Positions 4,280 through 45,165 of a stretch of 63,261 nucleotides of DNA are shown in pieces. The stretch is from contig CAZJZB010000004.1 in the NCBI GenBank assembly GCA_964550425.1, positions 1 to 63,261 of the forward strand, given 5' to 3'. The position numbers and the translations under genes were made by a program. The DNA is from an uncultured Candidatus Saccharibacteria bacterium (lineage in GTDB: Bacteria > Patescibacteriota > Minisyncoccia > Phycocordibacterales > Phycocordibacteraceae). How positions within the stretch are numbered: position 1 is the first letter of the stretch; every line of letters begins with the position of its first letter. Below the pieces are notes generated by a model. It saw nothing but the letters and a program-made list of their open reading frames with translations, had not been told where the DNA came from and searched no databases.

Positions 4280-4367
4280 TTCTCCGATATCCCCACGGGG
4301 TGAGAGGGTATAGTTGACTCTGTTTCCAGGGACGTTACAATTACCCCATTATCCACTTATCAACACT

Positions 4368-4751: not shown

Positions 4752-5021
4752 ATGCCCGTTCTCAACGAGTTTCTCCAGAAAGTCGTCGTGGAGGTCGTCA
4801 ATCCGATTATCCTGCTGCTCGTCGCAGGAGCGTTTATTGTGTTCTTGTGGGGCGTATTTGAGTTTATCCGACAGGCGGGAGATGAAGGGAAGCGCGAGGA
4901 GGGCAAGAGCGCCATTCTCTATGGCCTCATAGGCCTCGTCATCATCTTCGGTGCTTACGGCATTATCAATCTAGCTCTCGGGACCTTCGGTATCCCGACA
5001 ATTCAGAAAATTTCGAAGTGA
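4752..5021 (+). CDS. pilin-like small 2-TM protein, paralog 6
   Basis: Shared module NPIILLLVAGAFIVFLWG...GDEGKREEGKSAILYGLIGLVIIFGAYGIIN. The start directly follows the previous stop. Confidence 0.6.
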   Translation: MPVLNEFLQKVVVEVVNPIILLLVAGAFIVFLWGVFEFIRQAGDEGKREEGKSAILYGLIGLVIIFGAYGIINLALGTFGIPTIQKISK

Positions 5022-5044
5022 TGGTCGTGAAGAGACAAAGAAGG

Positions 5045-5127
5045 TGCTGGGGAGAGGACTCGAACCTCCAATGGATTGCTCCACATGGTCCTAAGCCATG
5101 CGCGTCTACCAATTTCGCCACCCCAGC
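5045..5127 (-). tRNA. tRNA-Leu (anticodon TAG), type II with long variable arm
   Basis: The reverse complement folds by hand: acceptor GCTGGGG/CCCCAGC, anticodon stem CATGG/CCATG, loop CTTAGGA, T-loop TTCGAGT. No CCA is encoded. Confidence 0.85.
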
Positions 5128-5160
5128 GCTTGTGGAACTATAGCAAGCGTAATTACTTTG

Positions 5161-5233
5161 TGCGCCCACCAGGGTTCGGACCTGGGACCTTCTCGTTAAG
5201 AGCGAGCTGCTCTACCAACTGAGCTATGGGCGC
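5161..5233 (-). tRNA. tRNA-Lys (anticodon CTT)
   Basis: Reverse complement GCGCCCATAGCTCAGTTGGTAGAGCAGCTCGCTCTTAACGAGAAGGTCCCAGGTCCGAACCCTGGTGGGCGCA. Acceptor GCGCCCA/TGGGCGC and anticodon loop CTCTTAA. Confidence 0.85.
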
Positions 5234-5964
5234 GCGTCGATATTTACTGACGGTCGTTTAATTGTCTTTAGGTGCGACCAACGCAGCATAGTTGATTCTA
5301 TTGTGGGAACCAAATCCTGTAAAGCAGCATGAATCCACGCGAGCGTTTTATATCGCATATCCGTACCCTTAGGTACATACACCTTAATGGTTCCGTAATA
5401 TAAATTGTTTTTCTTAAATCCCTTATTTGCAGGTTTGATGAAGCTTTTCCCAAAGTTCTCAATCGGAATTCCCGTGATATCCGACCAAAACTTCTTTACT
5501 TCCGCCTCGTTTTGTTGGGAATAGATGTTGAGATGCGCTTTAAGTGTCGAAGGAGGAACATCAAACATTTTTTTGAACCAATGCGTCATGAATACAATAA
5601 GAACAGGATCGGAGTTTGTAATGGCAAAGTTCTTTGTTTTGCTTCCTTCCGCCCAATAAAGGGCCGCACCCAGAAAGCGGTAAGTCTCTGATGAGAGTGG
5701 TAGCAGAATCTCTTTCCGTGCGTTTTCAGTAATCAGTGCAACCTCCTTTTTTCTACGCTCGACCTGGCTCGGTGTCCCGCGCGAGAGGATTTGTATCTGT
5801 TTTGTATAAAGACGCGCACGATGCTTGGGTGAAAGGCGGACGTTCTTAAGCCAAAGGCTAAGCGAGCTTTTCGCGATAGGTACTTGTTGGCGTATTTCGT
5901 TGTAACTTAATCCCTTTTTTCGCAGTGTGATTGCCATCCTGCGCATACCGGTTTTCTGTTTCAT
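5224..5964 (-). CDS. LAGLIDADG-type homing endonuclease-like protein with N-terminal HTH
   Basis: N-terminal HTH (GLSYNEIRQQVPIAKSSLSLWL) and the motif GAALYWAEGSK. The gene is visibly more AT-rich than its flanks, and its last 10 nt overlap the 5' end of tRNA-Lys. Confidence 0.6.
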   Translation of the reverse strand: MKQKTGMRRMAITLRKKGLSYNEIRQQVPIAKSSLSLWLKNVRLSPKHRARLYTKQIQILSRGTPSQVERRKKEVALITENARKEILLPLSSETYRFLGAALYWAEGSKTKNFAITNSDPVLIVFMTHWFKKMFDVPPSTLKAHLNIYSQQNEAEVKKFWSDITGIPIENFGKSFIKPANKGFKKNNLYYGTIKVYVPKGTDMRYKTLAWIHAALQDLVPTIESTMLRWSHLKTIKRPSVNIDARP

Positions 5965-6068
5965 ACCTCTGATTATACGCTATATACCAACTGGTCTAAC
6001 TCTCAAATTCATTACAAAAGTGGATAAAGTAAGTGCGCTTCAGATTCTCAGAGAGGTGTACAAACTAT

Positions 6069-6890
6069 TTATAGGACCGCTTTTTCAACTCGCATCGCTC
6101 TGCCGAAAAGTTTGGCTCCCAAACGTTTGAAATTGTCGGTACTGTCAGTCGAGTAGAAACGGATACTCGACCGCTTACCGAATGTCTTTTCAAGATCGGT
6201 GTGTTTTTCCAAATACCTCTTTAATTTCTTCGGCACAACTCTCGCTTCTGATATAAGGGCGATATCCGGCCCTATGATTTTGCGAATTCTTCTTTCTAGA
6301 ATTCCATAATGCGTACAGCCGAGGATAAGCGCATCAATTTTCTTATGAGTTAATGGTCGCAGATATTTCTCCAATATCGTTTGTATCTCCGGAGAGTTTT
6401 GCCTTCCCGCCTCTACGAGCGGGACCAGAAGCGGGCACGCCTTCTGGAATACTTTTATGCCCGAATCAAGTTTCGTAAGTTCTCGGACGAACGCGTTTGA
6501 TGCGACAGTGGCCTCTGTCGCGATAACGCCCACTCTCTGGCTTTTGGTTTTCCGTGCCGCTTCTTCAGCCGCGGGAATAAGTACGCCAAGTATCTTCTTC
6601 GGACCGCGCGACTTCATATATTCTTGTTGTATTGTGCGAAGTGCGTCGCTCGAAGCGGTATTGCAGGCGATGATCACCATTCCGCACTCGTGCCGGAAAA
6701 GGAATTGCACCGCCTGTTTCGTGAACGCATGTATTGTCTCCTGCGACCGGTGTCCATAGGGAGCGCGGGCGGTATCGCCCAGATATACGTAGTCGTACCG
6801 CGGAAGCATACGCACAATAGAGCGGAGGATATCCAATCCTCCGAATCCGGAATCAAAAATCCCTATGCGCAGATGTTTCTTCTTTTGCAT
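6069..6890 (-). CDS. murI: glutamate racemase
   Basis: Motifs IGIFDSGFGGL, IIACNTASS and LGCTHYG. I chose the start MQKKKHLRIG at 6890 because the longer ORF (to 6941) is a translation of the adjacent tRNA. Confidence 0.9.
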   Translation of the reverse strand: MQKKKHLRIGIFDSGFGGLDILRSIVRMLPRYDYVYLGDTARAPYGHRSQETIHAFTKQAVQFLFRHECGMVIIACNTASSDALRTIQQEYMKSRGPKKILGVLIPAAEEAARKTKSQRVGVIATEATVASNAFVRELTKLDSGIKVFQKACPLLVPLVEAGRQNSPEIQTILEKYLRPLTHKKIDALILGCTHYGILERRIRKIIGPDIALISEARVVPKKLKRYLEKHTDLEKTFGKRSSIRFYSTDSTDNFKRLGAKLFGRAMRVEKAVL

Positions 6891-31023: not shown

Positions 31024-31094
31024 TGCCCGATCGTCTAATGGTAGGACAGCGGCCTTTGAAGCCGTTAATTGGGGTCCGAATCCCTGTCGGGCAG
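31024..31094 (+). tRNA. tRNA-Gln (anticodon TTG)
   Basis: Acceptor TGCCCGA/TCGGGCA, D-stem GTCT/GGAC, anticodon stem GCGGC/GCCGT, loop CTTTGAA, T-loop TCCGAAT. Confidence 0.8.
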
Positions 31095-31120
31095 CTCGCA
31101 AGTTTGTGTATACTCTTCAT

Positions 31121-31591
31121 ATGGAAAGTTCGACAGTATTAATCCCGTATTCCGATGAGTGGAAATTCCTATATGAAAAAGAATCAACTTTGATAAAAGA
31201 AATCCTCGGATCGTACCTGATCGACATTCAGCACATCGGAAGCACATCAGTACCTGATTTAATTTCTAAACCAATTATCGATATCGCCGCTCAAATAGAA
31301 AAACATACGGACGCCGACAAGTTCATTGAGCCACTACAAACGGTAGGATATACCTACAAACCAGATCTATCTTCGGCGGAAAGACACTTTTTCCAAAAAG
31401 GGAGTCCAGTTCAATTTCACTTATCTATCTCATATCTTGATCGGGGCGGTTATTGGAGGAGACAAATTGCTTTCCGTGATTATCTTGTTGGTCATCCAGA
31501 AGCGCGGAGAGAGTACGAACAAATTAAGCTGAATTCGGTCGATAAGTCTGAATTTATTCAGAAAATCTTAGCTTTGGCCGAATCGAAATAG
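31121..31591 (+). CDS. GrpB-family (UPF0157) nucleotidyltransferase-fold protein
   Basis: Pattern IQHIGSTSVPDLISKPIIDI ... RHFFQKG ... FRDYLVGHPEARREYEQIK is typical of GrpB. The ATG at 31121 lies after the tRNA. Confidence 0.7.
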   Translation: MESSTVLIPYSDEWKFLYEKESTLIKEILGSYLIDIQHIGSTSVPDLISKPIIDIAAQIEKHTDADKFIEPLQTVGYTYKPDLSSAERHFFQKGSPVQFHLSISYLDRGGYWRRQIAFRDYLVGHPEARREYEQIKLNSVDKSEFIQKILALAESK

Positions 31592-31632
31592 GTTCCCACG
31601 TCGTATCAGACGGCCAGCCGGTTTGGTATAAT

Positions 31633-31827
31633 GTGAGTATGAAAATCTTTAGAACGTGGACATTCCAGTGGTGGGAGGTGAGTATAATCAAGCTCTGCCT
31701 CATCTCACTAGGCATTTTATTGGGTCTTTATTTCTACGACTATCTTGTTGACCTTATGTGGTTATGGTGGAGCGTCTTTATTGTTACTTCAATCTATCTC
31801 ATCACACGTTTCGTGAAGGAAGGATAA
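31633..31827 (+). CDS. small 2-TM membrane protein (holin-like by size, topology and position)
   Basis: 64 aa with two hydrophobic helices and a charged C-terminus (RFVKEG). It ends 15 nt upstream of the SH3b-M23 peptidase gene. Confidence 0.45.
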   Translation: MSMKIFRTWTFQWWEVSIIKLCLISLGILLGLYFYDYLVDLMWLWWSVFIVTSIYLITRFVKEG

Positions 31828-31842
31828 TTTCGAAATAAACTT

Positions 31843-32484
31843 ATGAAGTTTAAAGCGACAGACATTATAAATCTTCGGTCTGGCCCGAGCATTGCAAGCC
31901 CTAAAATAGGGAGTATTCCAGCAGGAACTGTTGTAGAAAGCGACGAGTACGTATGGAAGGCCGTAACTCTTCCCAATGACACGAAGGGATTCTGTGCCGC
32001 AAGTTATCTCGAACCTCTGAAGAGTAAGTGGTTTGCTCCAATACGTGCCGATAAATTCAAGGTCTTTCAAAAGTTTTTGCAGCCAGATGCGGATACTTAT
32101 CCTAAAACAGGACACCACCCCGGCGTGGATTACAGCACCAAGCAAGAAAATGGCGTCCCCCTCTATTTTTGTGCCGATGGTGAAGTGATTGAAAGTGGTT
32201 CCCACGCTCAATTTGGAAATTATTTCTTTTTCTACGTTCCTGAGGTAGACAGAACGTTTGTCTACTTCCATTTGCGCGATGCAGCTCCGATAAAAGGTCA
32301 GTACAAGGGTGGAGCTCAGTGCGGCATCACAGGTACTACTGGCAAATCCACCGGTATACATTTGCACTTGGAGTGCATGAAAGGAAGAAAAACATCCGCA
32401 AACCGCTCATCCCTTTATATTTCTAAAGAAGCACTGATGGCTGCCGCAGAAGATGCGGATGCGTTTATACGATCTCGCTTGTAA
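31843..32484 (+). CDS. SH3b-domain M23 (LytM-type) peptidoglycan endopeptidase without signal peptide
   Basis: SH3b-like N-terminus (INLRSGPSIASPKIGSIPAGTVVE). M23 motifs HPGVDY (HxxxD) and GIHLHLE (HxH). No N-terminal signal sequence. Confidence 0.75.
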   Translation: MKFKATDIINLRSGPSIASPKIGSIPAGTVVESDEYVWKAVTLPNDTKGFCAASYLEPLKSKWFAPIRADKFKVFQKFLQPDADTYPKTGHHPGVDYSTKQENGVPLYFCADGEVIESGSHAQFGNYFFFYVPEVDRTFVYFHLRDAAPIKGQYKGGAQCGITGTTGKSTGIHLHLECMKGRKTSANRSSLYISKEALMAAAEDADAFIRSRL

Positions 32485-32561
32485 TTATTGTTTCTACTAT
32501 CGTTCAAGACAATCAGCACTACTTGACTCGGAGGGTTGAACTTGTTTGGTATAATTGACCA

Positions 32562-33194: not shown

Positions 33195-33348
33195 TTTCAA
33201 GTCCTCTGACGAAGAGATTTCTAAAATGAAAAAGCGCACTATTTTCTTCTGATCGCCTATATACGCAGTTAGAAATAGAGGTTGGGAGATATAGCTATCA
33301 ACACCTGTGGCAAGTGTGCAGGGTATAATCCTGTACAATGAAAAGCAT

Positions 33349-33573
33349 ATGGACCAACCGAAACCGCCTTATCTTTTCGTGCTTGTCGGCATCGTTGCCG
33401 GCCTTATCATCGGCATCCCATTAGGGTATGTGGCAGGAACGAAAGTGACACCGGTTCCCCTTGTTGAATCAAACATTGCCGACGAAAATCCTCTAAGCGG
33501 CGTATCGGCCAATCCTCTCGATGACGTGAAGATCAACCCATACGAGGGCGTGAAGTATAACCCTTTCGAATAA
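33349..33573 (+). CDS. small single-TM protein
   Basis: MDQPKPPYLFVLVGIVAGLIIGIPLGYVAG followed by an acidic tail with NP repeats. The stop is 1 nt before the next start. Confidence 0.45.
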   Translation: MDQPKPPYLFVLVGIVAGLIIGIPLGYVAGTKVTPVPLVESNIADENPLSGVSANPLDDVKINPYEGVKYNPFE

Positions 33574-33574
33574 C

Positions 33575-35164
33575 ATGTCCCGCAGAATATTTGCGACGAA
33601 CTTTCTTGCGTTCGCACTGCTTGTCGGAGGCGTAGCGTACGCCGCGGAGGCCGATATCATATTCCCGGTCGCAGAACTTGGCGGTTGCGAATCGAAGGAA
33701 GCATGCAAAACATATTGCGATCTCAAAGCGAACATAAACCAATGTCTCTCTTTCGCTGAAGCGCACGATCTGATTGGCAAGGAGGACGCAGCGATAGCTC
33801 GGAAAATCGGCAGTACCGAAGGCCCGGGGGGCTGCATGGGGGTGGAGTGCCGAGCGTACTGTGAAGTCGAGGAACATTTTGAAGAATGTATCGCCTTTGC
33901 CGAGGAACATGGGATCATAAAAGCGGAGGATGCTAAATATGCGCGGATCCTCAAAGAGAAGTCAGGACCAGGCGGTTGTCGGGGTATTGAATGCAAAGCG
34001 TACTGCGAGAACGATGCACACTTTGACAAATGTCTCGCGTTTGCGGAGGAAAATGGGTTCATCTCAAAAGAGGAGGCGGTCATGGCAAAGAAGATAGGAA
34101 CCGAAGCGGGTCCTGGCGGCTGTAAGAGAGAGGAATGTCGAACGTACTGCGAGGATGTCTCGCACGCGGAGGCGTGTCTTGCTTTTGCAGAAGAGCATGG
34201 ACTCATGTCGCAAGAAGATCTTGTCAAAGCAAAACACTTTATCGGCAAAACCGGTCCGGGAGGTTGCAGAGGCGTTGAGTGCAAAACCTATTGCGAAGAT
34301 TCCACTCATGGCGATGAGTGCCTCGCGTTCGCGGAAGAGAACGGCCTCATTTCGAAAGAGGATGGCGAGCGCGCACGGAAATTCATGAATATCGAGGGTC
34401 CCGGCGGTTGCCACGGAGAAAAATGCCGCACATACTGTGACAATCCAGACAATCGCGAAGTGTGCTTTGCTTTTGCCAAAGAGCACGATCTTATTCCACA
34501 AGAACAGCTCGATCAGTCCGAGAAACTTTTCAATAGTACCGGCCCGGGCGGTTGCAAAGGATTTGAGTGCAAAACGTATTGCGAGGATACATCACATCAA
34601 AGTGAATGTCAGAAATTTGCCGAAGAACATGGCTTCATGCAGCGTTCTGACGGGCCTCTTCCTCCGGAGGGGATGATGCAAGAATTTGAGGGCGAGCAGG
34701 GTTCCCGCGGCACCGAGGAGGGAATAGAGGGCCTTCCCCGCGGGGTGATGCACGGAAGACAAGGAGGCGTACCGGACGGAGCGATGTCTCTTCCTCCAAA
34801 TACCGGGGACTTTCGGAATCAATATCAAGACGAGTATCAGAAGCAATACGGAGAGCAATACCAAAACCAGTACCAGCAGGAATATCAGAAGCAGTATGAG
34901 TCCGAGTATCAGAAATACCAGCAAGATCCAAATGCATACCCGTCACCTTCATATTCTCCGTCTTCAGGAGGTACTGGAACCTACGAAGAAAAGAGTCAGT
35001 CCTCACCGGACAGTTCATACGCGCCACCGCCTTCTGGAAACACCTATTCTGACAGTAGTTCCTATGTATCGTCGCCTTCTCCACTAACCTCCACCAGCTT
35101 TGATCGCGGGCTGTTGATTGGCTCCGCATATGCGGCGGTCTTCAATTTACTCTTTAGTAAATGA
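33575..35164 (+). CDS. secreted repeat protein: seven 48-aa Cys4 repeats plus a Q/Y-rich low-complexity tail and a C-terminal hydrophobic segment
   Basis: Signal peptide, then 7 copies of GPGGC-x4-C-x3-C-x8-C-xFAEEHG-(I/L). Next comes a (E)YQ(K/N)QY-rich stretch, an S/P-rich stretch, and a terminal hydrophobic helix. Confidence 0.7.
   Translation: MSRRIFATNFLAFALLVGGVAYAAEADIIFPVAELGGCESKEACKTYCDLKANINQCLSFAEAHDLIGKEDAAIARKIGSTEGPGGCMGVECRAYCEVEEHFEECIAFAEEHGIIKAEDAKYARILKEKSGPGGCRGIECKAYCENDAHFDKCLAFAEENGFISKEEAVMAKKIGTEAGPGGCKREECRTYCEDVSHAEACLAFAEEHGLMSQEDLVKAKHFIGKTGPGGCRGVECKTYCEDSTHGDECLAFAEENGLISKEDGERARKFMNIEGPGGCHGEKCRTYCDNPDNREVCFAFAKEHDLIPQEQLDQSEKLFNSTGPGGCKGFECKTYCEDTSHQSECQKFAEEHGFMQRSDGPLPPEGMMQEFEGEQGSRGTEEGIEGLPRGVMHGRQGGVPDGAMSLPPNTGDFRNQYQDEYQKQYGEQYQNQYQQEYQKQYESEYQKYQQDPNAYPSPSYSPSSGGTGTYEEKSQSSPDSSYAPPPSGNTYSDSSSYVSSPSPLTSTSFDRGLLIGSAYAAVFNLLFSK
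33677..34670 (+). repeat. 7 tandem 144-nt coding repeats (48-aa Cys4 module)
   Basis: The repeats are seen in translation and have diverged at the nucleotide level. Boundaries are approximate. Confidence 0.7.
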
Positions 35165-35217
35165 TCATTGTTCTAGTGTTGCTCCGAAAGACAAAAGCGT
35201 TTTGCTATACTTCCCTT

Positions 35218-35762
35218 ATGCAGAGCGAGAAACTTAGGCCGCATTTTCTCATGGTTCTTCTTGTTGGAGCGATTATCCTCGTGACGTTTATATTCGCACC
35301 GTTCCTCAAGCCGCTCGCGCTTGCCGCGGTGTTCGCCGTCGTACTGCAAGGGCTCTATGGAAGAATATCAAACATGCTTGGCGATTGGCCGAGCATCGCA
35401 GCATTTTTGGAATTCCAAACGGTTTTCTCTGGGGAACGGTTGCTGCGATTGCGGCCCTTATTCCCGGCATCGGGACGGCGCTTGTGTTCATCCCCGCGAT
35501 CGCCTTTCTTTTTTTTATCGGGAACATACCGCAGGCGCTCGGACTTCTCGCCTGGGGTGCTCTTGCGGTCGGACTTATCGATAATATTCTCGGGCCGAAG
35601 CTTGTCGGAAGAGGGATGCAACTTCATTCACTTCTCGTTCTTCTCTCGGTCCTCGGCGAAATAATATTCTTCGGTCCAAGTGGCATCTTCCTTGGCCCCT
35701 TGTCGCTGAGTTTGCTTTTTGTTCTCCTCTCAATCTATGCTGATGTCTCGCGCAGATTTTAG
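35218..35762 (+). pseudogene. AI-2E family transporter (PerM/UPF0118) remnant with internal deletion and frameshift
   Basis: An N-terminal ~60 aa (MQSEKLRPHFLMVLLVGAIIL...) is in one frame. The C-terminal ~120 aa (GIPNGFLWGTVAAIAALIPGIGTALVFIPA...GPKLVGRGMQLHSL) is in another frame. The middle ~150 aa of a normal family member are missing. Confidence 0.55.
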
Positions 35763-35864: not shown

Positions 35865-36593
35865 ATGGAAACAGGTTCAAAGCAAAATAGTTTATCAATT
35901 TCTTCTGCCATTGTGATCGCCGGAGTTCTCATCGCCGGAGCGATATTTCTTAGCGGCAATCCCAAGACCGTTACCGGCACGCAGCCGCAAGCGGTACCGC
36001 CAGTGGGGGCGGCACAGGCAAGTGACTTGGATAAGATGAGGCCGATCAGCACAGAAGATCACATTCGAGGCAATCCTGATGCCCCGATTAAAATCGTTGA
36101 GTACTCTGATACTGAATGCCCATTCTGCAAACGATTTCACGAGACCATGAAGCAAGTCATGGATGAATACGGCAAAGACGGAAGGGTTGCATGGGTCTAT
36201 CGTAATTTCCCTCTGGATCAACTGCATCCGAAGGCGCGGAGCGAAGCGGTCGCTCTTGAATGTGCCAACGATCAGGGCGGCAACGACTCATTTTGGGCCT
36301 ACACAGATCGTCTCTATGAAGTGACCCCATCCAATAACGGACTTGATCCGGCCGAGCTTCAGAACATAGCCGCATACGTAGGCCTGAATATGGCGAAGTT
36401 CAACACCTGTCTCACGAGCGGGAAATTCACCAAGCATATTGAAGACAGTGTTCAGGATGCTGCTGCTACTGGCGGTAACGGAACGCCATGGAGCATCGTG
36501 GTCGCAAAAAACGGAAAGAAATATCCATTATCCGGTGCACAACCGTACTCCGCGGTGAAGCAACTCATTGATCTAGCACTACAGGGGAAATAA
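35865..36593 (+). CDS. membrane-anchored DsbA-family thiol:disulfide oxidoreductase
   Basis: N-terminal TM helix and the thioredoxin-fold active site EYSDTECPFCKRFH. Confidence 0.8.
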   Translation: METGSKQNSLSISSAIVIAGVLIAGAIFLSGNPKTVTGTQPQAVPPVGAAQASDLDKMRPISTEDHIRGNPDAPIKIVEYSDTECPFCKRFHETMKQVMDEYGKDGRVAWVYRNFPLDQLHPKARSEAVALECANDQGGNDSFWAYTDRLYEVTPSNNGLDPAELQNIAAYVGLNMAKFNTCLTSGKFTKHIEDSVQDAAATGGNGTPWSIVVAKNGKKYPLSGAQPYSAVKQLIDLALQGK

Positions 36594-36595
36594 CT

Positions 36596-37138
36596 ATGAT
36601 CGTTCACGTTTTGCAAAAAGTATTTCAAAAGCCACCATACATACTTATTGCTCTTGCGACAAGCGTTATCGTGTTTGTCTTTGCCGTATGGCTCCCAAAC
36701 ATTCCATTGATTGTGGAAGTTATGGGACATTCAAGCGTGTCCTTTTCACAGAGGATTGATCTGCCGATTAGCTTGCTTGGTTCTATTGCAACCAACTTCA
36801 CGCTACTTTCTGCCTCGTATACAATTGCTATTGCCGTTTTGTTCGGCATCAACCTCGCCATGATTATCTATTTCTTGCGTCGCAGGATAGTTGAAGTGAA
36901 ACAGAGCGGGATCGCAACTGGATTTTTAGGAATAACGAGCGGCGTGGTCGGTATGGGGTGTGCTGCATGCGGATCGCTTCTTCTCATGAGCATTCTTTCG
37001 GTCTTTGGCGCATCTTGGATACTCTCGTTTCTGCCGTTTAACGGTGGCGAATTCGGCATTCTTGGCGTGATACTGCTTGCGACCTCTCTTTCTATGATTG
37101 CAAAACAAATCCAAAATCCTGCGGTATGCAGAATTTAA
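36596..37138 (+). CDS. polytopic membrane protein with an intramembrane CxxC (GMGCAACGS)
   Basis: About 5 predicted TM helices with a single CAAC pair in a Gly-rich helix. The start is 2 nt after the DsbA stop. Confidence 0.5.
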   Translation: MIVHVLQKVFQKPPYILIALATSVIVFVFAVWLPNIPLIVEVMGHSSVSFSQRIDLPISLLGSIATNFTLLSASYTIAIAVLFGINLAMIIYFLRRRIVEVKQSGIATGFLGITSGVVGMGCAACGSLLLMSILSVFGASWILSFLPFNGGEFGILGVILLATSLSMIAKQIQNPAVCRI

Positions 37139-37153
37139 TTATCTTATAAAAAT

Positions 37154-37750
37154 ATGGACTCACAACAGAAACGTAATTTCCAGAAAATTGTCTCATGGGT
37201 TTTGGGCGGCGGTCTGACGATTGCAGCGATCGGAGGTCTTATATGGTTCGTTGCGACACGACCTCCCATTCCGGAATCTGAAATCATTTCGAAAAAAGGC
37301 ATCCACTGGCATTCAGAACTTACTATCTATATGAAAGGAGTAAAACAAGAAATCCCGGCAAATATCGGCATTGGCGCTGTCCATCAGCCGATACATACGC
37401 ATGACGCGATAGGAACGATACATCTTGAGTTCCAGGGACTGGTTCGCAAACAGGATATTACTCTTGGTCAATTCTTCAAAAATTGGGGCAAGGATATGCA
37501 ATCATTCGGATCGAATATGCGACCGAGCGATGAGCGAGGAAGTACTGAGGCCAGCAGGTCGAATATGCGACCGAGCGATGAGCGAGGAAGTACTGAGGCC
37601 AGCAGGTCGAATATGCGACCGAGCGATGAGCGAGGAAGTACTGAGGCCAGCAGGCCGAATGTGAGAATGACCGTCAACGGCGAAGAAAACATTGAGTACG
37701 AGAACTACGTCATGCACGACAAGGACATCATCGAGTTGCGCTTCGAATAA
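37154..37750 (+). CDS. membrane-anchored protein with a His-rich motif and a 3x16-aa tandem repeat insert
   Basis: TM anchor, the motif HWHSELTIY...HQPIHTHDAIGTIHLE, then SNMRPSDERGSTEASR three times. Confidence 0.55.
   Translation: MDSQQKRNFQKIVSWVLGGGLTIAAIGGLIWFVATRPPIPESEIISKKGIHWHSELTIYMKGVKQEIPANIGIGAVHQPIHTHDAIGTIHLEFQGLVRKQDITLGQFFKNWGKDMQSFGSNMRPSDERGSTEASRSNMRPSDERGSTEASRSNMRPSDERGSTEASRPNVRMTVNGEENIEYENYVMHDKDIIELRFE
37511..37654 (+). repeat. perfect 48-bp x 3 tandem repeat (in frame)
   Basis: tcgaatatgcgaccgagcgatgagcgaggaagtactgaggccagcagg is repeated three times without mismatch, followed by a degenerate partial unit. Confidence 0.9.
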
Positions 37751-37771: not shown

Positions 37772-39877
37772 ATGAAAAATTCCCACGATACACATTCATA
37801 TACTTGTCCGATGCATCCGGAGATTGTGAGAAATGTGGCTGGCATGTGCCCGGAGTGCGGGATGAATCTCATCCCGACCGATGCAAAGAAAACTGACGGG
37901 CACGAAGAGCACAATAAGCACGCAGGCCATCAAACCGAATCGTTCCTGAGGAAGTTTTGGGTTGCTTTTGCGCTTACTATTCCGATTTTCTTTTATTCGG
38001 AAATGGCGAAAATGATTTTTAACATACAGGCACCGGAGTTCCCCGGATCGCAGTATGTTTTCCTCGCTATTGGAAGTTTCGTCTTCTTCTATTGCGGATG
38101 GATTTTCCTCGCGAGTGCGTACCGCGAACTGCAGGCCCGATTGCCCGGGATGATGACACTCATCGCGATTGCCATCACGGCCGCGTACCTCTACAGTTTC
38201 TTTTCAATACTTCTGGGCGGGCATCACGATCTATTGTTTGAACTCTCATCGCTTATCGCCATCATGCTTCTGGGGCATTGGATAGAGATGAAGTCGGTGC
38301 AGGGCGCCCAGGGAGCGTTACGGGAGTTGGCAAAGCTCTTGCCCGATACAGCAGAAGTCATGAGAGGGAATAAGACCGAGATCATACCTCTCGGCGAACT
38401 TTGGGCGGGCGATGTTGTGTTGATAAAGCCGGGGGCAAAAATCCCCGCTGATGGAAAAATCATCGAGGGGAGATCGGATATCAATGAATCCGTCATTACT
38501 GGTGAATCAAGACCGGTGGAAAAATCTACAGGTGCGATGGTCATCGCCGGCTCCATTAATGGCGATGGAAGCATCAAAGTAGAAATAGAAAAGATAGGCG
38601 AGCACACATTTCTTGCCGGGGTTATGCGACTTGTTGCCGATGCGGAAGCGTCTAAGTCGCGTCTTCAGATGCTCTCGGATCAAGCGGCGTTCTATCTCAC
38701 CATTATTGCGATTGTGGTCGGCACGATTACTTTTGGCGTATGGATTCTAGTCGGAGCGGGAATCGTGATAGCAACCGAGCGGCTTGTCGCAGTTCTTGTC
38801 ATTACCTGTCCGCACGCTCTCGGGCTCGCAGTTCCTCTGGTCGCATCGATTTCAACCACGATGGCAGCGAAGAACGGCTTGCTTGTGAAAGAGCGCCGCG
38901 CGCTTGAAGCGGCTCGAAATATCGATATCGTCTTATTTGATAAAACAGGGACACTTACCAAAGGGGAATTCGGCGTAGATGCAGTCATTGCAAATGGCGG
39001 CGTTACCGAAGATGCTGTTCTCAAGATTGCGGCTTCGATTAACAACAATTCGGAACATCCATTGGCGAAGGCAATGGTGCGGGAGGCAGAAAAAAGAAAC
39101 ATCTCCCCGGTTCCGGTAAAAGATTTTTCCCGAGTCGCCGGTAAGGGAACAAGGGGAATCATTGAACAGAGCGAAACGTATGTCGGTAATGATTATTTTC
39201 TTACAGAAAACAATATAGTAATTTCAAACGAGTATCAAAATCAAATAGATACGCTATCAAAAGAAGGGAAAACGGTCATTCATGTGATTTCGGATAAAAA
39301 ACTTCTCGGCAGTATCGCGCTTGCGGATATTATCAGGGAAGAATCGCGCGAGGCGATTCAAACCCTGAAGAATCTCGGCGTCAAAACAGCGATGATCACC
39401 GGTGATTCGGAGGATGTTGCTTCGTGGGTAGCTGGAGAATTGGGCATTGACGAGTATTTTGCCAAAGTTATGCCAGGCCAAAAGGCCGAAAAAGTCAGAT
39501 TGCTCCAAAGCAAAGGCAAAAAAGTAGCGATGGTTGGAGACGGCATTAATGACGCTCCGGCTCTTACTCAAGCGGACCTCGGCATCGCGATTGGTGCCGG
39601 CACAAATGTCGCTATTGAATCAGCCGGGATTATTTTGGTAAAAAATGACCCTCGAGATATTCCGAAGATCATTAAGCTCTCAAAGCTTACCTACGCCAAG
39701 ATGATTCAGAATCTCTTTTGGGCGACCGGGTACAATGTGGTCGCCATTCCGCTTGCGGCCGGCGTACTGGCATCCAAAGGTATCGTATTGGAGCCGGCAA
39801 TCGCAGCGGTACTCATGAGCGTTTCAACGGTTATTGTGGCAATCAACGCCGTACTTCTTCGCCGCAAAGCGTTATAA
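37772..39877 (+). CDS. copper-translocating P1B-type ATPase, CopB-like (CPH motif)
   Basis: N-terminal YTCPMHPE...CPECGM metal-binding finger and a His-rich stretch. Motifs TM CPH (VITCPHALG), DKTGTLT, GDGINDAP and MSVSTVIVAINA. Confidence 0.85.
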   Translation: MKNSHDTHSYTCPMHPEIVRNVAGMCPECGMNLIPTDAKKTDGHEEHNKHAGHQTESFLRKFWVAFALTIPIFFYSEMAKMIFNIQAPEFPGSQYVFLAIGSFVFFYCGWIFLASAYRELQARLPGMMTLIAIAITAAYLYSFFSILLGGHHDLLFELSSLIAIMLLGHWIEMKSVQGAQGALRELAKLLPDTAEVMRGNKTEIIPLGELWAGDVVLIKPGAKIPADGKIIEGRSDINESVITGESRPVEKSTGAMVIAGSINGDGSIKVEIEKIGEHTFLAGVMRLVADAEASKSRLQMLSDQAAFYLTIIAIVVGTITFGVWILVGAGIVIATERLVAVLVITCPHALGLAVPLVASISTTMAAKNGLLVKERRALEAARNIDIVLFDKTGTLTKGEFGVDAVIANGGVTEDAVLKIAASINNNSEHPLAKAMVREAEKRNISPVPVKDFSRVAGKGTRGIIEQSETYVGNDYFLTENNIVISNEYQNQIDTLSKEGKTVIHVISDKKLLGSIALADIIREESREAIQTLKNLGVKTAMITGDSEDVASWVAGELGIDEYFAKVMPGQKAEKVRLLQSKGKKVAMVGDGINDAPALTQADLGIAIGAGTNVAIESAGIILVKNDPRDIPKIIKLSKLTYAKMIQNLFWATGYNVVAIPLAAGVLASKGIVLEPAIAAVLMSVSTVIVAINAVLLRRKAL

Positions 39878-40276: not shown

Positions 40277-41818
40277 ATGAAAAACAAAACACTTTTTATA
40301 TTCATTGGAATGATAATTCTCGGCGTGTTTGCGCTTGGAAATGAAAAGTTTCTAGCGCCTCCTATATCTGCCGTAGAAAGTTCAGTCGTTGATCTAAAGG
40401 ACGGCGATACTTTTGACCTCACCGCCGCATACGTCACAAAAGAAATCAGTGGAAGAAGTCAGAGGATGCTTGCCTATAATGGCTCCATCCCCGGACCGAC
40501 TATTCGTATCACGCAAGGTGCAGAAATTACTATCAACTTCAAAAACAATACCGACCTACCCGCGCTTCTTCACTCGCATGGCGTACGCATGGACAACGCC
40601 TTTGACGGTTCGCAATTACAACAAAAAGAAATGGAGCCGGGCGAGTTATTTTCCTATAAACTCAAGTTTCCTGATGCGGGCGTCTATTGGTATCATCCGC
40701 ACGCAAAGGAAGTATACGGACAGGGTCTGGGGCTCTATGGCGCTTTTATCGTTACCTCAACTGATTCGGCGTATTTCCCGCCTGTGAATCGTGAAGTACC
40801 GCTCTTTCTGTCCGATGTTCCTGTCGAAAATGGCAACATTGCGCTTGATAAAAACAAAACAAGCCATTCTCTGATGGGACACTACGGCAATGTGATGCTC
40901 ATAAACGGAGAAGAAAACTATATCCTTCGCGCAAAGTCGGGAGAGGTTGTGAGAATGTATGTGGTAAACGCGGCAAATGCCCGACCGTTTAATTTTGCGA
41001 TTAATGGATTAAAACTCAAACGCATCGGCGCGGATAGCGGCGCATACGAAAAAGCATCGTTTGTGGACAGTGTGGTACTTGGCCCGTCAGAGAGAGTAAT
41101 CGTTGATGTATTCTTGTCTATACCCGGATCGTACGAAATACAAAACAAAACTCCCGAGAAGACCTATTCTTTAGGGACTATTGTTGTGGGGAATGAAAAG
41201 ACAGACGCTTCTTACAAAAGCGAATTTAGTGTGCTTCAAAATAATGCCGCGACGACACGAAGTGTCGATTCATTCCGCGCATATTTCAACACGGAGCCGG
41301 ACAAACAGATAAAACTCTCGATAAACTTTATGGGAAATATGCAGAGCATGATGGGTGGCGGACATATGATGCCCGACGGCACGGTGATGGGAGGATCTAT
41401 GATGATGAGCGCGCCCAAAGAAGGGATTGAGTGGGAAGACGATATGCAGATGATGAATCAGATGGCAAACGCCAATATGGTGAAGTGGAAAATAATCGAT
41501 CAAGACACAAGCAAAGAGAATATGGATATTGACTGGTCGTTCAAACAAGGCGAACCAGTGAAGATCCGGATTTTCAACGATCCAACATCAATGCATCCAA
41601 TGCAACACCCGATCCACTTCCACGGACAGCGATTTCTCGTGATTGCTCGAAATGGGGTGACACAAACAAATCTTGTATGGAAAGATACGACCTTAGTGAA
41701 GTCGGGAGAAACGGTTGATATCATTCTCGATCCATCAAACCCGGGTACGTGGATGGCACATTGTCACATCTCGGAGCATTTGGAGGCCGGGATGATGTTC
41801 AGCTTCGAGGTGCAATAA
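40277..41818 (+). CDS. multicopper oxidase (CueO/laccase-like) with a Met-rich insert
   Basis: Copper ligand motifs HSHG, YWYHPH, HPIHFHG and HCHISEHLEAGMM. The Met-rich segment is MGNMQSMMGGGHMMPDGTVMGGSMMM. Confidence 0.85.
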   Translation: MKNKTLFIFIGMIILGVFALGNEKFLAPPISAVESSVVDLKDGDTFDLTAAYVTKEISGRSQRMLAYNGSIPGPTIRITQGAEITINFKNNTDLPALLHSHGVRMDNAFDGSQLQQKEMEPGELFSYKLKFPDAGVYWYHPHAKEVYGQGLGLYGAFIVTSTDSAYFPPVNREVPLFLSDVPVENGNIALDKNKTSHSLMGHYGNVMLINGEENYILRAKSGEVVRMYVVNAANARPFNFAINGLKLKRIGADSGAYEKASFVDSVVLGPSERVIVDVFLSIPGSYEIQNKTPEKTYSLGTIVVGNEKTDASYKSEFSVLQNNAATTRSVDSFRAYFNTEPDKQIKLSINFMGNMQSMMGGGHMMPDGTVMGGSMMMSAPKEGIEWEDDMQMMNQMANANMVKWKIIDQDTSKENMDIDWSFKQGEPVKIRIFNDPTSMHPMQHPIHFHGQRFLVIARNGVTQTNLVWKDTTLVKSGETVDIILDPSNPGTWMAHCHISEHLEAGMMFSFEVQ

Positions 41819-41881: not shown

Positions 41882-42016
41882 ATGATGGGATATGGATATG
41901 GCTACGAAGGCATGATGGGAGGAGTGGGATCGTTCGGCTTCCTCACATGGCTGGTAGTGTTTGCGGATCTCGTTCTTGTGGGTATCTGGCTCTGGCAGCA
42001 GGTTTCAAAGAAGTAA
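41882..42016 (+). CDS. small Gly/Tyr/Met-rich single-TM peptide (44 aa)
   Basis: Hand translation MMGYGYGYEGMMGGVGSFGFLTWLVVFADLVLVGIWLWQQVSKK. It falls below the ORF-track cutoff and lies directly after the multicopper oxidase. Confidence 0.4.
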   Translation: MMGYGYGYEGMMGGVGSFGFLTWLVVFADLVLVGIWLWQQVSKK

Positions 42017-43732: not shown

Positions 43733-44431
43733 ATGGAGACCAATGAAACGGAAAGTAATTTTTTACCAATAGTAGTTGTAATCACCGGACTTCTTATTGT
43801 TGCGGGTGCGGTCGTCTGGAACGGGTTGCGTCCGGCAGGATCACCGCAAGAAGATAATGGAGCAGCACAAAAAGTTGATATTAAAAATGTGAAGACCGAT
43901 GGCGATGCTTTCATCGGCGCTGTTGATGCACCGGTCACAATCGCATCATGGAGCGATTTTCAGTGTCCAAGATGCAAACAATTTGAACTCGATACTCTAC
44001 CGCAAATAATCACAGAGTACGTAGATACAGGGAAAGTAAAACTCGTGTTTATGGACTTCGCGTTCTTGGGTAACGATTCCATCACCGCCGCTCTGTATGG
44101 CCGTTCGATATGGAAACTCTATCCGAGCCAGTACCTCGCATGGCGTACCGCGATGTACATTGCACAGGACGAAGAGGGCGATAAAGGATTTGGCAATGCC
44201 GAATCAATCGACACATTGAATGCTACAATCGCCGGCTTCGATGCTGTGAAGATTGCCGCTGACGTGAAGGAGAATACGAATATTTATCGGGCAGCGATAG
44301 ATGCCGACCGTGTCGAAGTCAAGAAAGCACACATCACAGGGACGCCTTCTTTCGTGATTGGCACGCAACTCATTCAGGGTGCCCATCCTTATCCGACGTT
44401 CAAAGACGCAATCGATCCGCTCTTGAAGTGA
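43733..44431 (+). CDS. membrane-anchored DsbA-family thiol:disulfide oxidoreductase (second paralog)
   Basis: TM anchor and the active site WSDFQCPRCKQF. Confidence 0.8.
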   Translation: METNETESNFLPIVVVITGLLIVAGAVVWNGLRPAGSPQEDNGAAQKVDIKNVKTDGDAFIGAVDAPVTIASWSDFQCPRCKQFELDTLPQIITEYVDTGKVKLVFMDFAFLGNDSITAALYGRSIWKLYPSQYLAWRTAMYIAQDEEGDKGFGNAESIDTLNATIAGFDAVKIAADVKENTNIYRAAIDADRVEVKKAHITGTPSFVIGTQLIQGAHPYPTFKDAIDPLLK

Positions 44432-44451
44432 CCTCGGTATATCATTTCTGA

Positions 44452-45165
44452 ATGAATATCCTCTTTATTGCTCTCGCCGCTTCAGCCGCTACGTTTGTTG
44501 GCGGATTTTTCGCGCTGCGGTTCCGCGACAAACTCCATCTTATCCTCGGTTTCTCGGCGGGTGCAGTCGCGGGCGTCGCGCTCTTTGACCTCCTGCCTGA
44601 GGCAATTGAACTTGGCGCGCAGTATCACGACGCTTCGACCATCGCGCTTTTCATCGCGTTTGGCCTCTTCGGTTATCTTATCCTCGACCGGCTCATTTTT
44701 TTGCATACGCATGAGGAAGATGAGGAAGCGAATACTCCGCGCGGCTCTTTCGGCGCGCTAACGCTCTCGGCTCATAGTTTTCTTGACGGTGTTGCCATTG
44801 GCGTCGGCTTCCAGGCCTCCGTTGTAGTGGGAGTCGTGGTGACTGCGGCGGTCTTGACGCATGATTTCTCGGACGGCATCAACACGGTGAATCTCGTCCT
44901 GCGTAATGGTGGGAGCTGGAAACAGGCGTTTCAATGGCTTCTTGTCGATGCGGCAGCGCCAGTGCTCGGCGTGGCTTCCACGCTATATTTGCGCATTCCC
45001 GAATCGGCTATCGGGCTTGTACTCGCCGTATTTGTCGGCACATTCCTTTATCTCTCTGCAAGCGATCTCATTCCTGAGAGTCATCATCGGCATCCCCGCG
45101 CGCTTACGACCATCATGACGCTTCTCGGAGCGGCGCTAATCTATCTCGTCGTACATCTCGTATAA
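44452..45165 (+). CDS. ZIP family divalent metal transporter (ZupT-like)
   Basis: Motifs HSFLDGVAIGVGF and THDFSDGINT, with about 8 TM helices. Confidence 0.8.
   Translation: MNILFIALAASAATFVGGFFALRFRDKLHLILGFSAGAVAGVALFDLLPEAIELGAQYHDASTIALFIAFGLFGYLILDRLIFLHTHEEDEEANTPRGSFGALTLSAHSFLDGVAIGVGFQASVVVGVVVTAAVLTHDFSDGINTVNLVLRNGGSWKQAFQWLLVDAAAPVLGVASTLYLRIPESAIGLVLAVFVGTFLYLSASDLIPESHHRHPRALTTIMTLLGAALIYLVVHLV

What the first reader, a model, noticed from the sequence alone, without database searches (positions are those of the whole stretch)
33575..35164. Secreted protein built from seven 48-aa Cys4 repeats plus a Q/Y-rich tail, next to the redox/copper island
After a signal peptide come seven tandem modules with the pattern GPGGC-x4-C-x3-C-x8-C-x-FAEEHG-(I/L)I. 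The C-x8-C interval is acidic and usually includes a His. That gives 28 regularly spaced Cys. A YQ(K/N)QY-type low-complexity stretch follows, then an S/P-rich region and a terminal hydrophobic helix. I do not recognise the repeat as a known family. Its position upstream of two DsbA paralogs, a CopB-type ATPase and a multicopper oxidase suggests either a disulfide-rich surface scaffold that needs the DsbA system, or a metal-binding (Cu/Zn) buffer.
Basis: partly seen in the sequence, partly recalled or inferred. Interest (0 to 1): 0.65.

Follow-up and report, generated by a model that had tools for sequence, protein, structure and literature searches.

The report
Cysteine-repeat surface protein with conserved NPF partner
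The gene is real and encodes an exported protein built from seven small cysteine-stapled helical modules; it belongs to a large, undescribed family of ultra-small (Patescibacteria) bacteria and is always paired with a tiny membrane protein ending in NPF motifs, not with the neighbouring copper genes.

Summary
ORF 33575-35164 (+) encodes 529 aa with a signal peptide, seven Cys4 modules (six at an exact 48-aa period, 28 Cys), a Y/Q-periodic helix, an S/P-rich stretch and a hydrophobic C-terminal tail.

- **Family:** it has at least 1,639 clusters at 50% identity, and every hit that carries an organism name is Patescibacteria/Parcubacteria. It has no Pfam, NCBIfam, PDB-sequence or Foldseek match.
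- **Structure:** AlphaFold2 gives a confident (pLDDT >90) string of three-helix modules.
- **Cysteines:** all four Cys are invariant in 1,085 repeats. Cys counts are even in 228 of 233 relatives, and 23 of the top 120 relatives carry Kazal domains. This favours two disulfides per module over metal sites. The "usual His" is Asn in 31% of repeats.
- **Context:** the DsbA/Cu-ATPase/multicopper-oxidase neighbourhood is kept only in one 89%-identical relative.
- **Conserved partner:** the gene directly upstream (33349-33573) is present in 28 of 28 assessable loci. It encodes a 74-aa single-pass membrane protein ending in tandem NP(F/Y/L) motifs and "NPFE".

Best reading (confidence about 0.5): a two-gene envelope module, a disulfide-stapled helical rod on a wall-spanning linker that works with the NPF protein. 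Direct binding is inferred, not shown.

The parts
33349..33573 (+). Partner gene: a 74-aa single-pass membrane protein. The TM helix is about residues 9-30 (nt 33373-33438). The acidic C-terminal domain carries four NPx motifs (NPL, NPL, NPY, NPF; nt 33487-33570) and ends ...KYNPFE-stop. An alternative GTG start lies at 33307.
   Evidence: Found directly upstream on the same strand in 23/23 repeat-gene loci that have upstream DNA. Found in 5/5 loci reached from the small protein. Alignment A4 has invariant NP...NPF. Of 120 relatives, 119 end in NP[FYL] within 3 residues of the C-terminus. One nt separates its stop from the repeat gene's ATG.
33575..35164 (+). Cys4-repeat protein gene (529 aa plus stop).
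   Evidence: Homologs. dN/dS 0.14.
33575..33643 (+). Signal peptide (residues 1-23, ...VAYA|AEA). The n-region SRRIF looks Tat-like, but the family is Sec-type.
   Evidence: Sequence. Only 9/233 relatives have an RR-type n-region. Low pLDDT, helix 11-21.
33653..33820 (+). Conserved N-terminal cap 'IIFPVAELGGC' plus module 1 (residues 27-82; C-x5-C-x3-C-x8-C).
   Evidence: P31, L35, C38, C44 and C48 are invariant in 121 sequences. HMM domain 1.
33821..34648 (+). Modules 2-7 (residues 83-358). Six 48-aa units, GPGGC-x4-C-x3-C-x8-C-xxFAEEHG..., each with three helices. The last unit lacks the third helix.
   Evidence: AF2 pLDDT >90 with helices of 8/13/11 residues per unit.
34649..34825 (+). Disordered G/E/P/R-rich linker (residues 359-417).
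   Evidence: pLDDT <50.
34826..34924 (+). Y/Q tract with an aromatic residue every 4th position (residues 418-450), predicted as a single long helix.
   Evidence: Helices 418-424 and 427-450, pLDDT about 85. A similar tract occurs in the closest relatives P0019 and P0022.
34925..35089 (+). S/P/Y-rich disordered spacer (residues 451-505), of the wall-spanning type.
   Evidence: pLDDT <50. Relatives carry P-rich spacers of variable length.
35090..35161 (+). C-terminal tail (residues 506-529), ...FDRGLLIGSAYAAVFNLLFSK. A 16-residue hydrophobic segment ending in a basic residue; a candidate membrane anchor or sorting signal.
   Evidence: Of 120 relatives, 66 have a hydrophobic 13-mer in the last 30 aa, usually amphipathic and ending in R/K. 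No known CTERM/LPXTG model matches.

Best explanation
The locus is a conserved two-gene cell-envelope module of Parcubacteria-type Patescibacteria.

- Gene 2 (33575-35164) is exported by the Sec pathway. Its N-terminal two-thirds fold into a string of seven small three-helix modules. Each module is most likely locked by two disulfides formed by its four invariant Cys. C2-C4 and C1-C3 is the most plausible pairing, suggested only by analogy.
- A long disordered G/E/P, Y/Q and S/P spacer follows, of the kind that spans a cell wall. A short hydrophobic, basic-ended C-terminal tail then anchors or sorts the protein at the membrane.
- Gene 1 (33349-33573) is translationally coupled to gene 2. It encodes a small bitopic membrane protein whose exposed acidic tail ends in tandem NP(F/Y/L) motifs and a free ...NPFE carboxy-terminus.
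- I infer that this tail is the membrane-proximal receptor or assembly partner for the repeat array, through a multivalent motif-repeat contact.

Shown: the anatomy, the fold confidence, the family size, the obligate gene pairing, purifying selection, and the non-conservation of the copper/Dsb context.

Inferred: the disulfides, the outward topology of the NPF tail, the direct NPF-repeat binding, and the anchoring role of the tail.

The neighbouring DsbA probably can oxidise this protein, but it is not a dedicated partner.
For: - Anatomy and repeat statistics.
- AF2: pLDDT >90 over residues 30-355, with a helix-helix-helix unit per 48 aa. The two-repeat model has pLDDT 87.
- Family: at least 1,398 hits among the scored candidates, and every hit that carries an organism name is a Patescibacterium. 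There are 1,639 / 1,340 / 786 50%-identity clusters at E<=1e-3 / 1e-10 / 1e-30. Proteins carry 5-12 repeats, most often 9.
- Disulfide reading: the four Cys are 100% conserved in 1,085 repeats. The mature Cys count is even in 228/233 relatives, including 68 with 4n+2 Cys, so extra Cys also come in pairs. Kazal domains, which are obligately disulfide-bonded, occur in the same chain in 23 of the top 120 hits. The signal peptides are Sec-type. Dsb genes exist in these genomes.
- Pairing: the small NPF gene is directly upstream in 23/23 loci, and the repeat gene is directly downstream in 5/5 loci reached from the small protein. Gaps run from -43 to +84 nt, with one exception that contains an assembly gap. 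No other neighbour family recurs in more than 4 of about 22 independent loci.
- The small-protein family has at least 272 members; 119/120 end in NP[FYL] and 86/120 end in NPFE.
- Purifying selection: omega 0.14.
- Tail.
Against: - No experiment or co-fold supports NPF-repeat binding.
- Both partners are acidic, which argues against a simple electrostatic fit. The repeat region has pI 4.9, and the NPF tail has a mean net charge of about -2.8.
- Topology of the small protein is not settled by K/R counts. The N-side is more positive in 59, the C-side in 24, and 37 are tied.
- Invariant Cys4 is equally what a tetrathiolate metal site would show, and I could not read Cys-Cys distances from the models.
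- The tail is missing or weak in about 45% of relatives, some of which are fragments.
- No expression data were found.
Confidence: 0.5

Rival explanations
1. Extracytoplasmic metal buffer or chaperone. Each module's four Cys, with the nearby His and acidic residues, bind a soft metal (Cu(I) or Zn). The protein would store or scavenge metal for, or protect against, the adjacent Cu-ATPase/multicopper-oxidase system.
For: - Four invariant Cys per module, including a helical C-x3-C. From my own knowledge, C-x3-C also ligates Cu in CuA sites, in Sco proteins and in Csp1-type copper storage proteins.
- His follows C3 in 65% of repeats, and the loop is acidic.
- In this lineage the gene lies 0.7-5 kb from DsbA, a Cu-type P-ATPase, a multicopper oxidase and a ZIP transporter. 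That arrangement is kept in L006.
Against: - The metal-gene context is absent from the other assessable loci.
- The His is Asn in 31% of repeats.
- Extra Cys in relatives come in pairs and sit within Kazal domains, the signature of an oxidising, disulfide-forming compartment.
- No match to Csp/DUF326, HMA, MopE or any metal-binding model in the repeat.
- The conserved NPF partner has no obvious role in metal handling.
Confidence: 0.2
2. Host- or prey-contact adhesin and protective coat. The N-terminal repeat rod is displayed at the cell surface and binds a ligand on the partner organism or in its wall. In some relatives it also carries Kazal protease inhibitors. On this reading the NPF protein is only an export or assembly helper.
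For: - The layout is that of a surface protein: signal peptide, repeats, Pro-rich spacer, C-terminal tail.
- Repeat number is variable (5-12), and accessory domains (Kazal, a MopE-like motif, an extra beta-type domain) are shuffled at the ends.
- Neighbours loosely include type IV pilus genes (T2SSE/F plus a faint pilin-type N_methyl hit in L001; a T2SSE in L003) and wall-remodelling genes (M23, SLT, FtsW/MurG, YceG, S41).
- Patescibacteria are largely episymbionts (abstract of PMC11665869, listed).
Against: - Repeat sequences are under fairly strong purifying selection and are well conserved across orders. Adhesin tips usually diversify.
- No ligand, lectin or Ig-like fold was detected.
- This reading does not explain the strict pairing with the NPF protein.
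Confidence: 0.2
3. Spurious or decaying ORF, or a low-complexity artefact.
For: The adjacent AI-2E transporter gene is broken in this window. No sigma-70-type promoter or terminator stands out.
Against: The ORF is intact, with omega 0.14 against an ortholog. There are thousands of relatives. The predicted fold is confident.
Confidence: 0.01

Closest known systems
Euplotes raikovi mating pheromones (Er-1; PDB 1ERC/2ERL; Pfam PF06360)
   Same: A secreted three-helix bundle of about 40 aa held by disulfides. Four of Er-1's six Cys have exactly the spacing C-x4-C-x3-C-x8-C, and hhalign aligns all four Cys of the module onto Er-1 Cys10/15/19/28. Two of 18 single repeats give weak Pfam hits to PF06360. 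It is a useful structural analogy for a disulfide-stapled mini helical bundle. It suggests a C2-C4 bond, because Er-1 pairs Cys15 with Cys28. That connectivity is from my own memory. The Cys contact order of 0.46 in PMC4030967 does not contradict it, but it does not discriminate between the possible pairings.
   Different: Not homologous by any test: hhalign probability is 2%, and the Pfam hits are below threshold (best E 0.0067). Er-1 is a eukaryotic single domain with six Cys and no GPGGC, FAEEHG or third-helix motifs. It is not arrayed in tandem and has no NPF partner.
Gram-positive wall-anchored repeat surface proteins (sortase/LPXTG type)
   Same: The order of parts: signal peptide, tandem functional repeats, Pro/Ser-rich wall-spanning spacer, then a C-terminal hydrophobic stretch ending in basic residues.
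   Different: No LPXTG or any known CTERM sorting model (sequence). The hydrophobic stretch is short and often amphipathic. The repeats are helical and Cys-rich. There is an obligate small partner gene.
Eukaryotic NPF-motif / EH-domain recognition (e.g. the Rabenosyn-5 NPF repeats, Pfam PF16601)
   Same: The partner protein carries 3-5 tandem NPF-type motifs flanked by acidic residues. One relative gives a sub-threshold hit to PF16601 (E 0.002, 19 bits against a cut-off of 27.6).
   Different: No EH or EF-hand domain was found by Pfam in the repeat protein. The bacterial motifs are probably extracytoplasmic and the last one is always at the free C-terminus. This is a compositional resemblance only. 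Binding is untested.
Copper storage proteins Csp1/Csp3 (Cys-lined four-helix bundles; Pfam DUF326)
   Same: Helical, with Cys on helices including C-x3-C. Csp1 is exported. This window has a copper-gene neighbourhood.
   Different: No Pfam or structural match. The unit here is a three-helix module of 48 aa with only four Cys. The copper context is not conserved across the family.
Kazal-type inhibitor domain proteins (PF00050/PF07648)
   Same: 23 of the top 120 relatives carry a C-terminal Kazal domain in the same chain, and one is named 'Kazal-type serine protease inhibitor' by its source.
   Different: The window protein has no Kazal domain. The Cys4 module itself is not Kazal: it has 4 Cys rather than 6, and is all-helical.

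Membership tests
Any Pfam-A / NCBIfam family (whole protein and single repeats) | Score above the curated threshold to a family model | tested here: not met
   Pfam: best E 0.76 for the whole protein. Single repeats give only noise. NCBIfam: 0 families at E<=10.
Any solved structure or fold (PDB, BFVD) | Significant sequence or Foldseek match | tested here: not met
   phmmer and a repeat profile against PDB sequences: 0 hits at E<=10. Foldseek with the full model: best E 1.0. Foldseek with the two-repeat model: best E 3.6 and TM<=0.29 (PDB), best E 2.8 (BFVD). Small helical domains are hard for Foldseek, so a distant fold relative is not excluded.
Kazal-type inhibitor | Six-Cys Kazal domain (PF00050/PF07648) | tested here: not met
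   No hit in the window protein. Present only as an accessory domain in 23 of the top 120 relatives.
Csp-type copper storage / DUF326 Cys-rich helical bundle | Pfam DUF326 repeat; four-helix bundle with many inward-facing Cys | tested here: not met
   No Pfam hit. The AF2 unit is a three-helix module with 4 Cys. No Foldseek hit.
Csp-type copper storage / metal-binding protein in general | Stoichiometric Cu(I)/Zn binding by the Cys | not testable with these tools
   Needs ICP-MS or ITC on purified protein. The indirect evidence is mixed.
Euplotes pheromone family (PF06360) | Six Cys in three conserved disulfides; score above the Pfam threshold | tested here: not met
   Four Cys only. 2/18 repeats give sub-threshold hits, best E 0.0067. 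hhalign probability 2%. Analogy only.
Sortase (LPXTG) or other known C-terminal sorting-signal substrates | LPXTG / PEP-CTERM / GlyGly-CTERM or similar motif, then a TM segment and a basic tail | tested here: not met
   No NCBIfam sorting-domain hit. No LPXTG in the last 40 residues. A hydrophobic segment plus terminal K/R is present, so a new type of signal is not excluded.
Tat-exported cofactor protein | Twin-arginine S/T-R-R-x-F-L-K n-region conserved in the family | tested here: not met
   The window protein has SRRIFATNF, but only 9/233 relatives have any RR-type n-region.
EH-domain / NPF recognition system | NPF motifs in the ligand | tested here: met
   Tandem NP[FYL] motifs and a terminal NPF are invariant in the partner.
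EH-domain / NPF recognition system | EH (paired EF-hand) domain in the receptor | tested here: not met
   No EF-hand or EH hit in the repeat protein.
Dedicated DsbA-substrate operon / copper-resistance island component | Conserved linkage to dsbA, copA/B or multicopper-oxidase genes across relatives | tested here: not met
   Linkage only in L006, which is 89% identical. A DsbA lies 7 kb away on the opposite strand in L018, and a DsbB lies 1.6 kb away in L027. None in the other loci.

The most novel reading that the evidence does not exclude
The 48-aa Cys4 module is a previously undescribed extracytoplasmic peptide-recognition repeat. It would read the tandem, C-terminal NPF(E) motifs of its co-encoded membrane protein. 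That would make it a bacterial counterpart of motif-repeat systems such as EH/NPF or TPR/EEVD. Together the two proteins would form a Parcubacteria-specific tether between the membrane and the outer envelope or host-contact layer.
Probability: 0.25. Interest if true: 0.75.

Novelty: new variant of a known kind. Interest (0 to 1): 0.58.

Why it matters
Patescibacteria (the CPR) make up a large share of bacterial diversity, yet their envelope and attachment biology is almost unknown.

This locus defines a widespread two-gene unit with no annotation. It has at least 1,600 clusters at 50% identity. It has a confidently predicted fold that matches nothing solved, and a strictly co-inherited partner that carries a short linear motif.

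That gives a concrete, testable handle. A synthetic NPFE peptide can be tested against a small recombinant repeat. The same handle applies to surface organisation, disulfide chemistry in organisms often regarded as anaerobes, and possibly a new C-terminal anchoring signal.

It also shows that the copper/DsbA neighbourhood, which made the gene look like a metal protein, is a lineage-specific accident of gene order.

Tried and rejected
- **DNA tandem repeats:** Tandem Repeats Finder found none in the gene.
- **The search for related loci:** the family alignment had no stretch conserved enough to search with. The single protein worked.
- **First context script:** it printed nothing because my regular expression demanded the wrong Phe position. 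Fixed.
- **AF2 co-fold:** I tried a linker fusion of the NPF tail and the repeat array, with 13 paired sequences (A2).
- **Fold and profile searches:** Foldseek with the full and two-repeat models against PDB and BFVD gave nothing significant. A repeat profile against PDB sequences gave nothing.
- **Literature:** searches on 'GPGGC', on Patescibacteria/Parcubacteria with cysteine-rich, Kazal or disulfide, and a read of a Paceibacteria metatranscriptome paper found no description of this family and no expression data.
- **Promoter/terminator scan:** uninformative.
- **Disulfide connectivity from paired Cys loss:** impossible, because no repeat lacks a Cys.
- **Tat export:** rejected.
- **ORF 37154-37750 as a DsbA paralog:** rejected.
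- **A third conserved neighbour:** none found. ABC ATPases, T2SSE and one unknown family each recur in only 3-4 loci.
Full report
**1. Observation**

The ORF at 33575-35164 (+) is present and encodes 529 aa. Its 28 Cys lie only in seven modules. Module 1 has Cys at 38/44/48/57 (C-x5-C-x3-C-x8-C). Six further modules begin at G83 with an exact 48-residue period and the pattern GPGGC-x4-C-x3-C-x8-C-xxFAEEHG.

An HMM built only from repeats of other proteins recovers all seven modules, with domain E-values of 5e-18 to 5e-23. The C3-C4 interval is acidic in all seven and holds His in five.

There is no repeat at the DNA level. The modules are 34-68% identical to one another, so the array is old.

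After the array come:
- a G/E/P-rich segment;
- a Y/Q tract with an aromatic residue every fourth position (418-450);
- an S/P/Y-rich segment;
- a 16-residue hydrophobic stretch ending in ...LLFSK.

Compared with an 89%-identical ortholog (L006), dN/dS is 0.14 at dS 0.37, so the gene is under purifying selection.

**2. What the protein looks like**

With a 121-sequence alignment, AlphaFold2 gives pLDDT >90 for residues 30-355. Each 48-aa unit has three parts:
- a short helix carrying C2 and C3;
- a 13-residue helix carrying C4 and the FAEEHG motif;
- an 11-residue helix (KEEAxxARK).

C1 sits in the GPGGC loop before the first helix. The Y/Q tract is a single helix with pLDDT about 85. The rest is disordered. 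A separate 110-residue, two-repeat model has pLDDT 87.

Nothing known matches:
- Pfam best E 0.76; NCBIfam none;
- PDB sequences none, either with the protein or with a single-repeat profile;
- Foldseek best E 1.0 (full model) and 3.6 (two repeats, TM<=0.29) against PDB, and 2.8 against BFVD.

The n-region SRRIF resembles a Tat motif. Only 9 of 233 relatives have anything similar, so the family is Sec-exported. The repeat region is strongly acidic, with pI 4.9.

**3. The family**

A word-indexed search found 1,398 relatives among the scored candidates. The best are 42-55% identical. Every hit that carries an organism name is Patescibacteria/Parcubacteria (Kaiserbacteria, Sungbacteria, Azambacteria, Yanofskybacteria, Wildermuthbacteria, Kuenenbacteria), and nearly all are called hypothetical.

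An exhaustive HMMER search of 1.84 billion cluster representatives gave 1,639 hits at E<=1e-3, 1,340 at <=1e-10 and 786 at <=1e-30.

Relatives share these parts:
- a signal peptide;
- a conserved cap, 'xIxFP(I/V)xELGxC';
- the repeat array;
- Pro-rich spacers of variable length;
- sometimes extra degenerate Cys4 units and a Kazal domain (23 of the top 120 hits);
- usually a short hydrophobic or amphipathic C-terminal segment ending in R/K (66 of 120 by a simple hydropathy cut).

The 121 sequences hold 1,085 repeats, 5-12 per protein and most often 9. This window's protein has 7.

**4. Disulfides or metal?**

All four Cys are 100% conserved in the 1,085 repeats. Y13 (87%), F26 (89%), A27, G31 and the GPGG loop are also conserved. 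The 'usual His' is His in 65% of repeats and Asn in 31%. That fits a helix-capping or hydrogen-bonding role better than an obligate metal ligand.

Because no repeat lacks a Cys, paired loss could not be used to read connectivity. Three observations favour disulfides:
- The mature Cys count is even in 228 of 233 relatives. This includes 68 with 4n+2 Cys, so Cys outside the modules also come in pairs.
- Kazal domains, which need three disulfides, occur in the same polypeptide.
- Export is by Sec, and Dsb genes exist in these genomes.

The spacing C-x4-C-x3-C-x8-C is also found within the six Cys of the Euplotes pheromone Er-1, a 40-aa three-helix bundle held by disulfides. My remembered Er-1 sequence is exactly PDB 1ERC/2ERL. 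hhalign aligns the four Cys one to one, but without statistical support (probability 2%). Two of 18 repeats give sub-threshold Pfam hits to that family.

This is an analogy, not homology. From my memory of Er-1's connectivity it suggests C2-C4, and therefore C1-C3. The Cys contact order of 0.46 reported for Er-1 in PMC4030967 does not contradict that connectivity, but it cannot discriminate between the possible pairings.

A tetrathiolate metal site cannot be excluded from sequence alone.

**5. Genomic context: what is and is not conserved**

- DsbA-like, 35865-36593;
- a 4-TM protein with a CAAC motif, 36596-37138;
- a P-type ATPase with a heavy-metal-binding domain, 37772-39877;
- a multicopper oxidase, 40277-41818;
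- a second DsbA, 43733-44431;
- a ZIP transporter, 44452-45165.

Searching the window's proteins against 23 related loci finds this set only in L006, the 89%-identical relative. Elsewhere there is one DsbA 7 kb away on the other strand, in L018. One of the five further loci has a DsbB 1.6 kb away.

All-against-all clustering of neighbours found no family recurring in more than 4 of about 22 independent loci, with one exception. That exception is a small ORF directly upstream on the same strand.

- The small ORF is present in all 23 loci that have upstream sequence. Gaps run from -43 to +66 nt. One case has a 723-nt gap and contains an assembly gap.
- In the window it is 33349-33573, and its stop is one nt from the repeat gene's ATG.
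- Its product has a short N-terminus, one TM helix and an acidic tail with typically four NP(F/Y/L) motifs spaced 6-10 residues apart. The last two motifs are invariant, and the chain ends ...K(T/V/Y)NPFE.
- A profile search found 272 relatives, 73-139 aa long. Every one that carries an organism name is a Patescibacterium. Of the 120 listed, 119 end in NP[FYL] within three residues of the C-terminus, and 86 end in NPFE.
- Going the other way, five small proteins chosen on long contigs all have a Cys4-repeat protein immediately downstream.

The pair therefore holds in 28 of 28 assessable loci.

Wall-remodelling genes appear nearby in several loci, but not consistently. These are M23, SLT, FtsW with MurG, YceG and S41.

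**6. Mechanism proposed**

The parts follow the order of a wall-spanning surface protein: signal peptide, functional repeats, Pro/Ser-rich spacer, short hydrophobic basic-ended tail. The strict, translationally coupled pairing with a membrane protein suggests a further step. That protein's tail carries multivalent short motifs and a fixed free C-terminus, which suggests that the repeat array binds the tail.

I therefore read the locus as a two-gene envelope module. It consists of a disulfide-stapled helical rod tethered at or near the membrane by its own tail and by the NPF protein.

Points against, or still open:
- Both partners are acidic.
- The topology of the small protein is only weakly indicated. 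Many members start MNKK or MKK followed by a hydrophobic stretch, like a signal anchor, but the K/R counts are ambiguous.

Confidence in the overall reading is about 0.5. Confidence in direct NPF-repeat binding is about 0.25-0.35.

**7. Rivals**

- **Metal buffer or chaperone (0.2).** It is kept alive by the invariant Cys4 with a helical C-x3-C and by the local copper island. It is weakened by the non-conserved context, the His/Asn exchange and the Cys parity.
- **Adhesin or protective coat (0.2).** It fits the architecture, the shuffled accessory domains and the lifestyle. It does not explain the pairing, and the repeats are conserved rather than diversifying.
- **Artefact.** Excluded.

**8. 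Comparison with the known, and novelty**

No defining feature of any named family was met (see the membership table). The nearest analogies are:
- Euplotes pheromones, for the module;
- LPXTG-type surface proteins, for the layout;
- EH/NPF or TPR/EEVD systems, for the inferred logic;
- Csp proteins, for the metal rival.

One small-protein relative gives a sub-threshold hit to the eukaryotic NPF-repeat model PF16601. That reflects composition only.

I found no paper describing the family.

I rate it a new variant of a known kind. It is a bacterial surface repeat protein, but with an undescribed domain and an undescribed obligate partner. Interest is 0.58. It is not a surprise in kind. It is, however, a large, clean, experimentally tractable unknown in a poorly understood major lineage.

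Noticed in passing
window 35161-35762: The AI-2E family transporter gene just downstream overlaps the repeat gene's stop and is split over two frames. Compared with L006, whose copy is intact (360 aa), the window lacks about 496 nt (L006 11821-12316). It is either a frameshifted pseudogene or an assembly error.
   Followed up: partly
window 33444-33533 (and the whole small gene 33349-33573): The NPF-coding stretch is 100% identical in nucleotides between the window and L006, while the flanking genes differ by 7-12%. dS of the small gene is 0.04 against 0.37 for the repeat gene. This could reflect selection on the RNA or on translational coupling, or a recent recombination patch.
   Followed up: partly
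window 36596-37138: A 180-aa, roughly four-TM protein with a GCAACG motif inside a TM helix and a C-terminal Cys starts 3 nt after the DsbA-like gene. It has no Pfam or NCBIfam match and is conserved in L006. It is a candidate non-canonical redox partner (DsbB/VKOR substitute) for DsbA.
   Followed up: partly
window 37154-37750 (repeat at 37517-37660): A membrane-anchored, His-rich protein (HWH...HQPIHTHD) lies between the DsbA unit and the Cu-ATPase. It is not a DsbA. It contains an exact threefold 48-nt tandem repeat (SNMRPSDERGSTEASR x3). No family match.
   Followed up: partly
window 41882-42016: A 44-aa ORF just after the multicopper oxidase begins MMGYGYGYEGMMGG and is followed by a TM helix. 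The region aligns with L006 at 81% identity. It may be a Met-rich small membrane peptide of the copper island.
   Followed up: no
L010: 262-2994, 3704-4000, 6485-7006, 7668-9491: Four other ORFs just upstream of the pair in this Parcubacteria genome share a near-identical C-terminal tail (...LTALESALKAILQLLGQ). This hints at a shared C-terminal sorting or assembly signal in these organisms.
   Followed up: no
L023 9318-9890; N-terminus of the L025 repeat protein (4262-6211); C-terminal part of P0001: A recurrent accessory domain (...SGLFxLxMxDxQGIxSFALVxPTDKxPYSGDLxGCP...) is attached to, or encoded next to, the Cys4-repeat protein in some relatives. It was not identified.
   Followed up: no
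window 31100-32530: The M23 peptidase/SH3 gene (31843-32484) lies in a segment that does not align with the otherwise syntenic L006. The tRNA at 31024-31094 is 100% identical between the two.
   Followed up: no
window 43733-45165: A second DsbA-like gene is followed directly by a ZIP-family zinc transporter gene.
   Followed up: partly
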